DNA of 64,000 bases from Bryobacterales bacterium (GCA_963703295.1 OY969810.1:3900001-3964000), one strand, 5' to 3'. Positions 1-9,000 are shown, counted from the stretch's first letter. Numbers are program-made.

Positions 1-3000
1 ATTCCCGCTCCCTTTGAAAGAGATCGCGCAATCGACTGGACTCCCGTCTGGTCATTGCTTGACCGCCGTTGGCGATGGGCTCCCACGGCCTACTGTTACT
101 ACGGTTATCCCTCGCCCGAGGATCACAGATTCTGCGCGGCCGATTCCAATGGCTGTGCGGCGGGCGCCACGGGGGAAGAGGCCGCGTTGCACGGGCTGCT
201 GGAACTTGTGGAGCGGGATGCCGTGGCGCTGTGGTGGTACAACCGAATCTCGCGAGAGGCAGTCGCGCCGGAAGAGGTTAGTCAACAGGCTGATCTATTT
301 GCGGGTCATTACGCAGCGCTGGGGCGGCGCCTCCGTCTATTCGATATCACCAGCGACCTTGGAGTTCCAGTCTTCGCCGCGATATCGTGGCGGCCAGAAC
401 TGGATCGCGAATTGATTCTCGGTTTCGGTTCGGGTTTCGAAGCCGCGGAGGCGGCGCAGCGGGCGCTCACCGAAATGCATCAGTTTTTGGAATTGAGTCC
501 AAACGTCCAGCCCCGCCTCCACTTGGATGGCAATCCGCGGGACCACGATTTCCTGATTGCTCCGGACGACGGAGATCTCGCTCCGGCCAGCCCGTGCGGC
601 GACCCTGAGACCTTACTGGCGCGGCTGCAGAATGCAGGCATGGACGTTTTGCTGCTCGACCAAAGCCGTAAGGATGTAGGAATGCCGGTAGTGAGAACGA
701 TAGTCCCGGGCCTGCGCCATTTCTGGCCACGCTTCGCGCCCGGGCGTCTCTACACGGTCCCGGTTGCCATGGGCTGGCGCGCCGGACCCGTTGCGGAAGC
801 AGAACTAAATAGGACTCCTTTTTTCTGTTAAGTCAGGCGCACTTACTTGCTATCATATAGTCCGTTTGCACTTGATTTCCTTACATAAAAATAGGGAGGA
901 ACAACGAAATGGCTGTCGAAGATGCGCATAAGTTTGTCGATATGGTAAACAAAGACCCCGATCTTCAACATAAGTTCCGTCAAGGTTGGGAGAACATCTC
1001 GAAATTGGCACACGAGAAGGGCCTTCATGTGACCCGCGAAGATCTACAGGAACATTTGCGTCAGCGCTGGGGTATCGCCAAGCCTGCGACCGCGGACGAA
1101 AAAGACACCTGCACTGTCTGCATTCCGTAGCGCTGGCAGCACCTGAACACCAGCTATGCCTCGCTTGAAATCGCACTCGGTGCTGGCGGGGACGGCGGTT
1201 CCCCATGCCAGCGCCAAAGTAATCGGTCCGGCCGATCCCTCCGCGTTTCGCAGAGTAACTGTCGTGTTGCAATCGCGCATGCCCGCCGCAGAGCGCAAGG
1301 CGCGAATCGCCCGCTTCGCAACGCAATTGCCGCATCAGCGCGAGTATCTCAAGCCAAGGGAATTCGCCGGCCTTTGCGGCGCCGATCCGGATCACTTGAA
1401 GGCGGTGGAGCGTTTCGCAAAGGCAAACGGCCTGCGGGTCGAAAGCTCAAGTGCAATTCTCCGCAACGTAGTCATAACCGGGTCAACTGAAGAGTTCTCC
1501 AAGGTTTTCCAACTGGTCATGGAGGAGTATGCCCAGAAGCACGGGTATTACACCTCGCACTCCGGCCCGATTTACGTTCCCAAAGAACTGTCCCCCATAA
1601 TCGAATCGATTCTTGGCTTGGACGACCAACCGCTAAAGCGTGAAGTGGTCATGTTGCCCAAAGGTCGAACCGGTTTTATGACCCCGGCGCAGGTTGCCGA
1701 GGCATATTCCTTTCCGCCGGATACCGATGGCGATGGCCAAAAAGTAGGTATCGTTCTGCCGGGTTGCGGCATGGAAATGGATTCCGTTCGATATCACTTT
1801 CAGCACGCTGGCCTTGCCATGCCGCAGGTCAAGTTGATGGAAATCCTGGGTGGAACCAGCCAGGCGGCGTCCCGGGAAGACGTGGCTTTGGTATTGTCGG
1901 TCCTCGATGGGAAAACGACCTTGACCAAGGACACAGTGCCGGTCTTCTCCCGAGGGATGAATACCATCGAGTCCAATATGGACGTGATTGTGGCGGGTAG
2001 TTTCGCGCCCAAAGCGCTGATTCTTGTCTACGGGGCGCCAGACTCTCACCAAGGCGCATTCCACGCCTTGGCGCACGCCACCACCGATCCCGGACACCCG
2101 GCCGTAATCTCGTGCAGTTGGAGCAGCCTGGAGACTGCCTACGCGCCCGCCGTAATCAAAACCATGAATACAGTGTTTCAACTAGCGGCGCTGCAGGGAA
2201 CCACCATCTGCTTTTCTTCGGGCGACGATGGAGACGGCACGCTGTGGAATCTCGCCAAGACGCCCACCGTGCATTATCCCGCATCAAGTCCTTATGTTCT
2301 CGCGTGTGGGGGAACAAGCCTCCGCGCCGTGCGAAAAGCCTTCACCGAGGTCTCGTGGAACGAAAAATCCGGCAGCATGCGCATGGCCAGCGGCGGGGGC
2401 TATAGCGTTCTCAATCCGCGGCAATCCTGGCAGAAGCACGCGTCTCCCGGGAACGGCGGACGCGGGGTTCCCGACGTCGCAGGCAAAGCCGACGTGCGGG
2501 GCGGTTATGAAATGGACGCGTCCGGACTTACTTTCACCATGGGTGGGACCAGCGCCGCGACTCCGATGTGGGCTGCGCTGGCAACGCGCCTGAATCAGGC
2601 ATTGGGCGTCAAGGTAGGCATGCTCGGTCCGTTGCTGTATGACAAGCGGTTCCGCGGCGCGCTCCGTGAAATCCTCACCAGCAATAACGGCGCCTATAAA
2701 GCAGGCCCGGGATGGAATCCGGTGACAGGCTTAGGTTCTCCCAATGGCGCCGCGTTACTTCAGGCGCTGCGGGGTGATTAATCCGAGCGGCGGCCCAGAA
2801 TGAACTCGCCGACCGTAGTCTCTTCGTAGTAGTTTGTGCCGGCGGTGCGCGCGAAGATGTCGGAGTGTCCGCCGCCCACGGCGCACGCCGCCAAACCCAT
2901 CGCCTCCGCCACCAGATACATGGTCTGCATCAAGACGCCAGTGTCTTTCAAAATCGTTGCATAGGCCATGGACCCATAGTTCCAAGTCACGCGTTGAAAG

Positions 3001-6000: not shown

Positions 6001-9000
6001 GCGGGTCGAGGCGCTCGCCGCGAAGCTGCTCGGGCGACATGTAGGCCAGCGTGCCGATAATGCCGTGGCCAGTCAGCGTCGCAGTCGTATCCGAGGAAAC
6101 GTCGCCAAATAACCGCGCAATGCCGAAATCGAGAACCTTGACCTGTCCTCTCGCGGTGATCATGATATTCCCCGGCTTGAGATCGCGGTGGATCACCCCG
6201 CGTTCGTGGGCCTCTTCCAATGCGGCGGTGATCTGGACTCCAATGTCGAACAATTCGAGAAAGGGAAGAGGCCGGCCACCCATGCGCGCGGACAGCGTCT
6301 GCCCTTGAATCAGCTCCATCACCAGATAGTCCACACCTTCATGGCTATCGAAATCATGGATCGTTGCGATATTAGGGTGGTTGAGTTTAGAAAGCGAAAG
6401 CGCTTCCATGCGAAACGCCCGGCGCGCTGCTTCGTCGGCTAAAGCGTCGGCGGTGAGCAGCTTGATCGCCACGTCGCGTTCCAGCCGCCCGTCCCACGCA
6501 TGATAGACCTCTCCCATGCCGCCGGCCCCGAGTTTCGCGCGGATCGAATATTGATTTAGGATCTGGCCAACCATGAATATTTCAGGATACCGCGCGACTG
6601 TTTACGAGCCCATGAATGTCGATACAACTTTTGGGACCGAATTACTCCGTTCGTAGGGCTGTTGCCGGGTCGATACGGGTCGCTCGCCGCGCTGGCAGCC
6701 AACAGGCGGTCATAGCAACGATTACCAAAATGCAGGGCGCGGCAACGAATGTAGTGAAATCGTGCGCGCTGACGCCCACCAGCATGCTTTCTAACATCTG
6801 CGACAGAGTTAGCGCCGCCGCCAAACCTAATACGACTCCAATTGCTATTAATCGCCCGCTCTCGCGCATTATCATCCTCTCTACATGGCGTGGCTCCGCC
6901 CCCAGGGCCATACGGACGCCGATTTCACGCGCACGCAGGCTCACCGAATATGACGTCACACCGTAGATTCCGATAGACGAAAGTAACAGAGACAGCATCC
7001 CGAATGCGCTTAGCAGGGTTGCGGAAAGTTTCTGTGCCCAAAGCGTCTTGCTCATCGCGTCGCCCACGGTTTCGGCGTCGAGAAAAAGATTTGTATCGAT
7101 CGCGTGAATTTCGCGTTGTACAGCGGATAAGATTATGGCCGGATCTCTCGCCGCGCGCACAACCAACACGCCATATGGGAAGTAATACTGTTCGGTCGAG
7201 AGGTAGATCATCGCCTGAGGCGCCTCGCCCGGGGTGCGATAATCCGCCGTGCGGACCACGCCTACAATCTGCACCGGCCGGTTCTCACCCGCGAATTGAA
7301 TCATCTTGCCCACCGCCTGTTGCGCCGGCCAGAAATGGTCGGCCGCGGTGCGGTTAACGATGGCCACTCGCGGGTTCGCCGCTCCGTCGCTCAAGTTAAA
7401 ATCGCGTCCGTTTTGAATCGGAATGCCTGCCGTCTGGAAGAATCCGGGATGGGTCACGCTCGTGAGCGTAGGGACTCCCGCTCCGCTCACGGTATTATCT
7501 TGGCCTTCCAGAAGTACCGTACGCGTGCCGCCGGGCGAAAAGGGCGCGTCTTTCGTCAGGCTTGCGGCTTGCACGCCAGGAACACTCGCCGCCAGTTCAA
7601 GAATCCGCCGCTGATACTCGCGGCCGCGGGCTTCGTTGTACCCCTGATCCGCAACGTTAAAGCCGATCAATCCCAGGTGCGCCGCATCAAAGCCGGGGTC
7701 CATCAGCGATCCGCTCTGCACGCTGCGAACGAATAACCCTGCCCCCAGCAGCGCCGTCAAAGAAAATGCGAACTGCAGCATCACCAAAAGGGCGCGCGGC
7801 GGCAAGCCCCCGCCGGAAGCCTGCGCGGAACCGGCGCGCTCTTTGAGGTTGGTAGCCAGGTCGTTGCGGGTGGCGCCCAACGCGGGAATCAGTCCGAACA
7901 CGATTCCGGTGAGCAGCGCGATCCCAAAGGTATAAGCGAGAACGTGGATATCGGGATCGAAACGGAACGAAGCGTATTTCAACGTCGGTGGCCGTAACGG
8001 CCACAGTAATCGACCTGCCCATTGCGCCGCCGCCATTCCCAGAACTCCGCCCAATGCCGAAAGCAGGATGCTCTCCATCAGCAATTGCCGGATCAGACGC
8101 CAGCGGCTGGCCCCCATTGCCAAACGAACCGTGATCTCCTTGGCGCGGCCCGCGGCGCGCGCCAGCAGCATATTTGCCACGTTGGCGCACGCGGTAAGCA
8201 GCACGATGCCCGAGATGATCAGCAGGATGGACCCTGTCCGGCCATAAATTTCACGGTCTTTGGGATTGAGCGCGGCCTCGGCGATTGGAGTCAGCTTGAC
8301 GCTTCGGCCATTGTTCTCGCGCGGATATTCGCGCTCAAGCTGCGCCGCAATGCTTTGCATCGCTCCCGTCGCCTGCGGAATCTCCACGCCCTTCTTCAAA
8401 CGGCCGGCTACTGAAAATACGGATGCCCGCCGCTGGTTTACCCATTGCGGCGCCGGATAAACTTGCGGATACATCGCCATTGGCGTCCACAAATCGGCGC
8501 CATAGAGCTCATTGACGCCTCGAAACTCCTCAGGCGCCACGCCCACAATAGAAAAGGCGCGGCCGCTCAACATCAACGTGCGCGATGTAATCGCGGGGTC
8601 GGAAGTAAAAAGCCGGCGCCAGAGTCCATAGCTGATGACGGTCACTGCGCGCGCGTTCGGCGTCACATCTTCTTCTGGAAGGAAGGCTCGGCCTACAACC
8701 GGTTTCACGCCCAGGGTCTCAAAGTAATTGCCGGTGACGATATGCGCCATTAAAGGCCGCGCTTCGCCCATGCCGGTGAGATTGATGACGATCGGCGCAT
8801 ACAACGCGAGGCTGGAAAAAACCGTGTTTCGGTCGCGGAAATCTTTGTAATTCAAATAGGAGACGGGAAGGAATCCTGGATTCTTAGGGTCGGACGAATA
8901 GATGGCCGCCAGCGTTGCCGGGTCGTGCACCGGCAACGAACGCAGCAAGATCCCATTCAGTAGCGTAAAGATAGTGGTATTAGCGCCGATTCCCAACGCC

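What a model noticed while it worked through the whole genome (the two positions that open the first line are those of the whole stretch)
1..6574. Nif11-type mini thiazole peptide with an S53 protease and a cytoplasmic TPR kinase: a RiPP used as signal
A Nif11-leader peptide ending DTCTVCIP lies with a YcaO fusion, a kumamolisin-type S53 protease, a SagB dehydrogenase, a RiPP C-methyltransferase and a soluble Ser/Thr kinase with a TPR domain, with no exporter. Reading: the product is a 4-8-residue bis-thiazol(in)e peptide that acts inside the cell or colony as ligand of the kinase. New if true: an azole RiPP wired to a Hanks kinase as receptor, and an S53 enzyme as leader protease.
Evidence so far: Gene set in call 63. 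In 4 of 300 other Acidobacteriota genomes the order YcaO-precursor-S53 is kept, cores end DTCVCI, DTCICI, DTCICI, DTCLMCVCV; 3 of these 4 carry the ortholog of the kinase (39-41% identity) convergently, the fourth a histidine kinase. Kinase has TPR hits and no membrane helix. Dehydrogenase in 1 of 4 and methyltransferase in 0 of 4 windows viewed, so the kinase is more constant than the tailoring genes. The finding spans contig positions 3896865 to 3906574; this window holds only 3900001 to 3906574 of it.
(Added by a program. Inside this text positions count along the whole contig: contig position 3,900,001 is position 1 of the stretch shown here. "Call 12" and the like, gene names such as g00115 and contig names such as C1 are that model's own, and its searches are not shown. 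The text may have been shortened before it was handed on; [...] marks where a part breaks off. The agent that wrote the report below was given it as the finding of a first reader that could run no searches.)

Follow-up and report, generated by a model that had tools for sequence, protein, structure and literature searches.

The report
Thiazole pentapeptide with dedicated receptor kinase
In scattered Acidobacteria, genes predicted to make a tiny sulfur-ring peptide and cut it free with an acid-type protease travel with one lineage of sensor kinases, whose sensing part stays with the peptide genes even when its catalytic part is swapped, so the peptide is likely a signal and the kinase likely its receptor (binding untested).

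Summary
The cluster is real and recurrent: LynD-type YcaO, Nif11 precursor, kumamolisin-type S53, ThcOx/SagB, divergent B12-rSAM and a Hanks kinase. Of 97 precursor relatives, 85 end T/N-C plus 2-7 residues (75 after Pro-Asp), mostly pentapeptides (TCFFA, TCICI, TCVCI). All 10 cluster S53s compared carry an insert and replace kumamolisin's S1 Asp179 (His in 9); 25 of 25 generic ones do not, fitting a cut after Pro-Asp. The kinase tail is a TolB-N+TPR module laid out like CadC's periplasmic sensor. In one 346-genome sample the 7 precursor genomes hold the cluster lineage of this module (6 placed on the tree, 1 frameshifted); 17 other module-bearing genomes do not. Clade support is moderate (80/64). 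The kinase domains are not one clade (AU p 2e-13): the sensor stays while the output is swapped, favouring receptor over modifying enzyme. Binding, cleavage and products are untested. This scan met the family before in other genomes.

The parts
1..831 (+). 3' part of LynD/TruD-type YcaO heterocyclase fusion (gene starts upstream at contig 3898741; RRE/E1-like + YcaO)
   Evidence: PF02624 E 2e-68; TIGR03604, TIGR03882; LynD 4v1t E 6e-117 over residues 7-694
893..899 (+). ribosome binding site AGGGAGG of the precursor gene
   Evidence: sequence
909..1130 (+). Nif11-type precursor, 73 aa, no Gly-Gly site
   Evidence: PF07862 E 9e-8; TIGR03798 31.7 bits, just under its 32.3 cut-off; 97 relatives
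1107..1127 (+). predicted core TCTVCIP, after the K-D (family: P-D) site
   Evidence: family pattern, 85 of 97 end T/N-C+2-7 aa, 75 of these after PD; cleavage inferred
1156..2781 (+). kumamolisin-type S53 protease with prodomain, no signal peptide; catalytic E272, D276, D357, S466 intact; S1 residue H373 (Asp179 in kumamolisin)
   Evidence: pro-kumamolisin 1t1e E 5e-81; alignments; model pLDDT 89.5
1861..1950 (+). cluster-specific helical insert just before the catalytic Glu helix (approximate limits)
   Evidence: 25-54 extra residues in 10 of 10 cluster S53s, 0 of 25 generic; helix 240-250 in the model
2778..4166 (-). ThcOx/SagB azoline dehydrogenase, 14 bp downstream of the kinase
   Evidence: PF22767, PF18679; TIGR03605
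4181..6574 (-). Hanks-type Ser/Thr kinase fused to a sensor module; this copy lacks the membrane helix of most orthologs
5777..6550 (-). kinase domain (VAIK, HRDLKPGN, DFG intact)
   Evidence: PF00069 residues 9-266
5318..5680 (-). TolB-N-like alpha/beta subdomain of the sensor module
   Evidence: TolB 1c5k Z 13.4, rmsd 3.0, 126 aligned; model
4187..5272 (-). TPR solenoid of the sensor module; with the alpha/beta part it matches the CadC periplasmic domain
   Evidence: CadC 3ly7 Z 13.5, rmsd 4.7, 272 aligned, model 2-331; Foldseek 3ly9 E 5e-4

Best explanation
The cluster likely makes a very short thiazole peptide that is predicted to act as a signal, and the linked kinase is likely its receptor. 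Inferred pathway: the LynD-type YcaO binds the Nif11 leader and turns the core Cys residues into thiazolines; ThcOx (where present) oxidises them and the B12-rSAM (where present) C-methylates a side chain; the S53 protease, with a lid-like insert and a His in its S1 pocket, cuts after Pro-Asp (Lys-Asp here) to free T-C-x-x-x(x-x), here Thr-Thz-Thr-Val-Thz-Ile-Pro. The peptide would bind the TolB-N+TPR module and switch on the attached kinase. In most relatives the module is predicted to face the periplasm beyond one membrane helix; here and in at least three other branches the helix is gone and the receptor is cytoplasmic, so the ligand would have to reach both sides, as a small hydrophobic peptide might. 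Shown: genes, intact catalytic residues, core pattern, fold of the module, co-occurrence, domain swap, helix losses. Inferred: chemistry, cut site, binding, activation. The kinase's target is not identified.
For: (1) Co-occurrence both ways: in one 346-genome sample 24 genomes hold the module; the 7 with the precursor hold the cluster lineage (6 placed on trees; G166 frameshifted but adjacent), and all 22 modules from the other 17 genomes plus a second G084 copy fall outside it. Precursor not found in 10 of 10 further genomes with out-of-lineage modules (positive control G763). At locus level, 9 of 10 in-lineage loci with 1 kb or more downstream have cluster genes, 0 of 41 outside. (2) Two checks made after the lineage was drawn: L073's kinase, cut by a contig end, appears to continue on G765:C100, followed by SagB and S53; G176's distant copy falls inside. 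In G763 the cluster is split by 230 kb and the kinase stays with precursor, S53 and SagB. (3) The module is a sensor type: CadC-like layout; also fused to a winged-helix DNA-binding domain (P0031, 39% over 495 aa) and stand-alone (P0029). (4) Sensor kept, output swapped: the 16-row inner group is 100/98 in the module tree but its kinase domains sit in two separate starred groups; AU rejects one clade, p 2e-13; P0026 looks like the intermediate, with two kinase domains. (5) Helix loss in 15 of 37 in-lineage proteins in 4 changes, against 61 of 62 scorable outside proteins keeping it, the exception being a stand-alone module at 1.53. (6) S53: insert and Asp179 replacement in 10 of 10 cluster enzymes, 0 of 25 generic; kumamolisin wants Pro at P2 and basic P1, and D179H is one of the changes that moved its P1 preference (PMC5935664, passages). 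The one locus whose core lacks D-T (L074, PGNCFFVR) lacks the S53, and its genome gave only a generic S53. (7) Variable hydrophobic pentapeptide cores, as in peptide pheromone types (recalled).
Against: No experiment on binding, cleavage or product. Support for the exact lineage is moderate in the careful tree (80/64; 97/89 only if L017, which has no cluster next to it and no precursor found in its genome, is included), though 99.5 and 88 in quick trees; the lineage was first drawn around cluster-linked loci, so the locus count is partly by construction, and kin are not independent. No exporter for the 22 membrane-anchored forms. Sedolisins work at acid pH (kumamolisin pH 2-4, PMC5935664), awkward for a cytoplasmic enzyme. 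This window's site is K-D, not P-D. YcaO type varies (TfuA-type in G208 and L020), so ligand chemistry would differ within one receptor lineage. An old-type stand-alone kinase is kept in two clusters (L070, G763), which a pure receptor model does not need. Six in-lineage kinases on contigs over 35 kb had no precursor entry of equal contig length, three had. No downstream target gene travels with the cluster.
Confidence: 0.5

Rival explanations
1. The kinase is an upstream regulator that senses some other cue (acid, as CadC does, recalled) and switches the cluster or its protease on; the peptide has another job, such as an antimicrobial or metal binder.
For: CadC-like fold; acid-type protease; kinase and SagB form a likely operon in all 7 loci that have SagB; co-inheritance is expected for a regulator too.
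Against: A dedicated regulator should keep its output domain and could vary its input; the reverse is seen. No transcription factor, immunity gene or exporter travels with the cluster. It does not explain helix losses confined to this lineage.
Confidence: 0.22
2. The kinase modifies the precursor: it phosphorylates the nearly invariant core Thr, as a tailoring step or as a gate on cleavage.
For: Thr precedes Cys in 84 of the 85 matching cores, in an acidic context that Hanks kinases like (motif recalled); an old-type non-RD kinase is kept as a separate gene after the rSAM in L070 and G763, and is absent in L074, whose core lacks Thr.
Against: L074 keeps the receptor kinase with no Ser/Thr in its core; the kinase domain was replaced in a whole branch; in 22 of 37 members the TPR module is predicted across the membrane from the precursor, so it cannot dock it; no lyase or Dhb-forming partner is present. 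It can coexist with the receptor model as feedback.
Confidence: 0.15
3. Damage signal: precursor and inactive pro-protease wait in the cell and the peptide is released only on lysis or acidification, then sensed by neighbours (membrane forms) or by the same cell (soluble forms). A special case of the best explanation.
For: No exporter, no signal peptide, prodomain kept, acid-type protease, receptor mostly outward-facing.
Against: Generic Acidobacterial S53s lack signal peptides too, so that is not diagnostic; the prodomain junction and pocket differ from kumamolisin, so the pH optimum may have moved; nothing tested.
Confidence: 0.15
4. The kinase is a passenger from a large paralogous family that happens to sit beside the cluster.
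For: About 58 Hanks kinases in this genome; the module family is broad and mostly not near RiPP genes; G176's copy is unlinked.
Against: Linkage persists across at least four family-level groups, through 55-65% divergence, gene-order changes, a change of YcaO type and a 230 kb split; lineage present in 7 of 7 precursor genomes and 0 of 17 others.
Confidence: 0.05

Closest known systems
Nif11 (N11P) and NHLP TOMM clusters, incl. NHLP-Burk with its large Ser/Thr kinase (Haft, Basu, Mitchell 2010, PMC2887384, passages and section 8 read; TIGR03903 hit over the kinase domain only)
   Same: Nif11-type leader, fused cyclodehydratase (TIGR03882/03604), SagB dehydrogenase; a Ser/Thr kinase was noted beside NHLP-Burk clusters, whose precursors also end in Cys near the C-terminus.
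   Different: No Gly-Gly site, no C39/ABC/HlyD exporter, a core of about 5 residues, an S53 protease (Cox 2015, PMC4603692, passages: these families have no PatA/G-like proteases). The kinase here is 800-890 aa with a TolB-N+TPR sensor, 138 bits against TIGR03903's 706 cut-off.
Cyanobactin pathways (LynD/TruD/MusD, ThcOx, PatA/PatG)
   Same: YcaO closest to LynD, TruD, MusD (E 6e-117 to 3e-113); ThcOx oxidase; a subtilisin-clan protease in the cluster.
   Different: Protease is S53, not S8 PatA/G; single core at the very C-terminus with no follower, so a PatG-type macrocycle is unlikely; Nif11 leader; receptor kinase.
Kumamolisin / sedolisin (S53)
   Same: Prodomain and Glu-Asp-Ser triad with oxyanion Asp.
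   Different: 25-54 residue helical insert, Asp179 replaced by His/Asn, always beside a precursor in the 9 loci where the flank could be seen or partly seen. The nearest RiPP precedent found is StdF, a predicted 'S8/S53' domain fused to a carbamoyltransferase that removes a follower (PMC13174530, passages).
CadC-type one-component sensors; Rap/NprR TPR peptide receptors
   Same: TolB-N-like + TPR layout behind one membrane helix as in CadC; TPR solenoid also matches Rap and NprR (Z 12-15.6), as do many unrelated TPR proteins.
   Different: Output is a Hanks kinase; CadC senses acid and cadaverine (recalled); RNPP receptors are cytoplasmic and bind unmodified peptides (recalled).
Peptide pheromone systems (agr AIP, ComX; recalled)
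   Same: Short modified peptide with variable hydrophobic residues encoded next to a receptor kinase.
   Different: Those use histidine kinases and dedicated export in Gram-positive bacteria; here a Ser/Thr kinase, azole chemistry, no exporter, a diderm phylum.

Membership tests
Linear azol(in)e peptides / TOMM | YcaO cyclodehydratase with leader-binding domain | tested here: met
Linear azol(in)e peptides / TOMM | precursor with Cys/Ser/Thr core next to YcaO | tested here: met
Linear azol(in)e peptides / TOMM | azol(in)e rings shown in the product | not testable with these tools
   needs mass spectrometry
N11P (TIGR03798) TOMM systems | Nif11 leader | tested here: met
   PF07862 above cut-off; TIGR03798 31.7 vs 32.3 bits
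N11P (TIGR03798) TOMM systems | Gly-Gly cleavage motif | tested here: not met
   absent in the 11 aligned precursors and the tails of all 97
N11P (TIGR03798) TOMM systems | linked C39-ABC/HlyD export genes | tested here: not met
   none among the neighbours scanned
Cyanobactins | PatA/PatG S8 proteases | tested here: not met
   protease is S53: Glu-Asp-Ser triad, Pro-kuma prodomain
Cyanobactins | core flanked by recognition sequences with a C-terminal follower | tested here: not met
   cores end at the stop codon
S53 sedolisins (kumamolisin type) | Glu-x3-Asp, oxyanion Asp, catalytic Ser, prodomain | tested here: met
   E272, D276, D357, S466
S53 sedolisins (kumamolisin type) | activity at acid pH | not testable with these tools
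   needs assay
TIGR03903 TOMM kinase/cyclase fusion | about 1270-position kinase + cyclase fusion | tested here: not met
   138 bits vs cut-off 706, kinase domain only
Hanks-type Ser/Thr kinases | catalytic Lys, HRD loop, DFG, APE-like motif | tested here: met
CadC-like sensors | TolB-N-like + helical subdomains in that order | tested here: met
   3ly7 Z 13.5, 272 aligned, 10% identity; Z is near the background for helical repeats, but the match spans both subdomains
CadC-like sensors | single membrane helix before the sensor | tested here: not met
   absent in this gene; present in 22 of 37 lineage members
Peptide pheromone-receptor systems | peptide binds and activates the linked receptor | not testable with these tools
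   needs binding and kinase assays

The most novel reading that the evidence does not exclude
An undescribed class of bacterial peptide signalling: a thiazole (or thioamide) pentapeptide with strain-specific hydrophobic residues, released without any exporter by a sedolisin retooled as leader peptidase, perhaps only on acidification or lysis, and read by a CadC-like TPR sensor wired to a eukaryote-like Ser/Thr kinase from either side of the membrane. It would give the first ligand for the large orphan family of TolB/TPR kinases of Acidobacteria.
Probability: 0.4. Interest if true: 0.85.

Novelty: new variant of a known kind. Interest (0 to 1): 0.66.

Why it matters
Acidobacteria carry dozens of TPR-bearing Ser/Thr kinases with no known ligand; this locus names a candidate ligand that is five to seven residues long and easy to make, so the question becomes testable. 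It also points to an S53 protease as a RiPP leader peptidase, with a concrete predicted cut site and pocket change, and to among the shortest azole RiPP cores. Searches of the held library found no description: Nif11+YcaO+kinase+Acidobacteri gave 1 unrelated paper, sedolisin+YcaO+precursor 0, Acidobacteri+RiPP+YcaO+threonine kinase 0, kumamolisin+RiPP 3 fungal papers, TIGR03903 0, Nif11+thiazole+signaling+receptor kinase 0. Subscription journals and the supplements of Haft 2010 and Cox 2015 were not seen and could list such clusters.

Tried and rejected
Complex prediction of the sensor module with the last 30 residues of the unmodified precursor gave no answer (score 0.02, mark 0.32, controls not folded): no evidence either way. 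The search of the 50% representative library could not be run, so distant precursors outside the 90% database search and outside Acidobacteriota were not surveyed. Promoter and terminator scans gave no excess over shuffles, and no shared DNA motif was evident by eye in the four YcaO/rSAM gaps; GC content shows no island. 'Ortholog only through the kinase domain' was rejected: the C-terminal 500 residues alone are 35-41% identical. 'No signal peptide means cytoplasmic action' was rejected as an argument: generic S53s lack one too. A PatG-like macrocyclase role was set aside because there is no follower. Match of core type to receptor branch (CFF cores with one branch, CxC with another) cannot be told from kinship and is not used. 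In the class sample only 3 candidates per genome were scored, so its 5 hits in 400 are a lower bound; none of the three examined had the cluster. The precursor was not found in G765, a fragmented assembly whose S53 contig ends before it. Rows dropped before the trees: duplicates of loci already held, the frameshifted G166 pieces, modules covering under 330 profile positions, and L044_1 and L065 (divergent or partial).

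
Full report
What is in the window. Upstream of the window the TIGR03975 B12-rSAM C-methyltransferase runs on the minus strand, head to head with YcaO over 34 bp. YcaO is closest to the cyanobactin heterocyclases LynD, TruD and MusD; that LynD/TruD act on Cys only is recalled. An ADOP permease precedes the kinase, but the genome has 96 such hits, so I do not count it as a part.

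The family. A precursor search of 401 phylum genomes gave six true relatives. Searching from the kinase side (49 metagenome loci; 27 genome loci) added L019, L020, L068, L070 and L074; L070 repeats the window's whole gene order. SagB is at 7 loci, always directly behind the kinase; the rSAM at 4 (window, L070, L074, G763); G208 and L020 have a TfuA-type YcaO beyond the kinase, and G208 gave no LynD-type match. Of 97 precursor relatives, 85 end in T/N-C plus 2-7 residues, 84 with Thr, 75 after Pro-Asp; the commonest cores are TCFFA (19), TCICI (14), TCVCI (11), TCLCI (6); 12 do not fit (11 Cys-free tails and one DTFCIP). So the usual predicted product is a pentapeptide with one or two Cys; the window's TCTVCIP is a long variant.

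The protease. Catalytic residues match pro-kumamolisin. Against 25 generic Acidobacterial S53s from the same genome searches, all 10 cluster enzymes compared have a 25-54 residue insert before the catalytic Glu, modelled as an extra helix packed before a lengthened catalytic helix, and all 10 replace the S1 residue Asp179 (His in 9, Asn in 1) where 25 of 25 generic enzymes keep Asp. Kumamolisin prefers Pro at P2 and a basic P1, works at pH 2-4, and D179H is among the designed changes that moved its P1 preference (PMC5935664, passages). This fits a cut after Pro-Asp; it is inference. The single locus whose core lacks D-T (L074) lacks the S53 (one case, genome completeness not given). One S53 with an insert lies beside a different TPR kinase with no precursor found (G048).

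The kinase. Its C-terminal 500 residues fold with high confidence (pLDDT 96) into a TolB-N-like alpha/beta domain and a TPR solenoid; among solved structures the CadC periplasmic domain matches across both parts in order (Z 13.5, 272 residues), while higher Z values come from generic TPR proteins. The same module is fused to a winged-helix domain or stands alone in relatives, as expected of a sensor. Contrary to the finding, the usual form has a hydrophobic helix between kinase and module: 22 of 37 proteins in the cluster lineage, and 61 of 62 scorable proteins outside (7 not scorable). The 15 without it, the window's among them, need 4 changes on the tree, all inside the cluster lineage.

Is the link specific? 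The module family is broad and most members have no RiPP genes nearby. On module trees the cluster-linked copies group together: SH-aLRT 99.5 on 106 rows, 88 on 62 rows, but only 80/64 in the careful 43-row tree, where the firm node (97/89) also holds L017, which has no cluster (precursor not found in its genome). The group was first drawn around cluster-linked loci, so the locus count (9 of 10 inside, 0 of 41 outside) is partly built in. The later tests are not: L073's cut kinase appears to run on into a contig with SagB and S53; G176, the genome with the histidine kinase next door, has an in-lineage kinase elsewhere; in a 346-genome sample, 22 modules from 17 precursor-free genomes and a second G084 copy all fell outside; 10 more genomes with outside modules gave no precursor. 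Three in-lineage kinases share their longest-contig length with a precursor entry; six on contigs over 35 kb do not. Kin are not independent, and many assemblies are incomplete.

Which end of the kinase is tied to the peptide? The kinase domains of the lineage are not one clade (AU p 2e-13, group named from the module tree beforehand). The branch holding L068, L070, L074 and G176 carries a different kinase subfamily, although its modules group with the window's at 100/98. P0026 has a remnant of the new type, then a degenerate old type, then helix and module; its old-type domain is sister (99/97) to small stand-alone non-RD kinases behind the rSAM in L070 and G763. The sensor therefore stayed with the peptide genes while the catalytic output was replaced. 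That is what a receptor predicts, and the opposite of what a tailoring enzyme or a dedicated upstream regulator predicts. The retained stand-alone kinases and the near-invariant Thr keep the modifying-enzyme rival alive.

Mechanism. Most likely (0.5): YcaO cyclises core Cys, optional oxidation and C-methylation follow, S53 releases the core after (P/K)-D, and the small hydrophobic peptide binds the TolB-N+TPR module and activates the kinase. No exporter was found, so the outward-facing receptors would need diffusion, a general transporter or lysis; an acid-triggered release on damage is a bolder version (0.15, within the receptor family of readings). Rivals: regulator sensing another cue (0.22), kinase acting on the precursor Thr (0.15), passenger (0.05).

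What is known. Haft 2010 (PMC2887384; passages and section 8) defined Nif11 leaders with Gly-Gly sites and ABC exporters and noted a large Ser/Thr kinase beside NHLP-Burk clusters; our kinase fails TIGR03903. Cox 2015 (PMC4603692; passages) states that NHLP/Nif11 families lack PatA/G-like proteases and does not mention Acidobacteria or kinases in its main text. StdF (PMC13174530; passages) is a predicted S8/S53 domain that removes a follower. PMC8546545 and 10.1101/2020.12.17.423248 were seen as listings only. Six searches found no description of this cluster; some searches gave only the background papers. Earlier notes of this scan describe the same YcaO-precursor-S53 family in other genomes. 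Verdict: a real, apparently undescribed variant of Nif11 azole RiPPs with its own S53 subfamily and a specifically co-inherited sensor kinase; the signalling role is well motivated and untested.

Noticed in passing
L172 9260-14262 (G048:C27): Heme-oxygenase-like oxidase, a TolB/TPR kinase outside this family and an S53 with the insert and Asn at the Asp179 position, co-oriented, with no precursor found: a possible second kinase-S53 pairing.
   Followed up: partly
P0122, P0128, P0131-P0138, P0140: A Cys-free subfamily of these Nif11 precursors ending SETPGF, SEAPGF or SEPPRR; context unknown.
   Followed up: no
P0026; L070 10800-11603; L128 about 6613-7400: Tandem-kinase receptor and stand-alone non-RD kinases that look like stages of the kinase-domain swap.
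   Followed up: partly
L016 14486-17166 and L020 3-1810: TfuA + thioamide-type YcaO replace the azoline-forming YcaO in one lineage that keeps S53 and kinase (and, in L016, a TCVCIA precursor).
   Followed up: partly
L104 3085-14610 (G361): Nif11 precursor with a Gly-Gly site among six B12-rSAM-like genes.
   Followed up: no
L105 7552-8861 (G022): Three tandem Nif11-like precursors with Cys/Pro-rich tails.
   Followed up: no
L015 15322-17394 (G176): MNIO (MbnB/TglH/ChrH) gene with a small ORF about 3 kb from the cluster; link not tested.
   Followed up: no
L014 7538-14518 (G166): All large cluster genes are frameshifted, likely assembly error in a 73% complete genome.
   Followed up: no
window 6642-9086 (-): ADOP duplicated ABC permease 67 bp upstream of the kinase, one of 96 hits in the genome; also beside the kinase in G084.
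   Followed up: partly
L038, L039, L043, L063, L066, L069: Out-of-lineage module kinases often lie in tandem arrays of two to four kinases.
   Followed up: no
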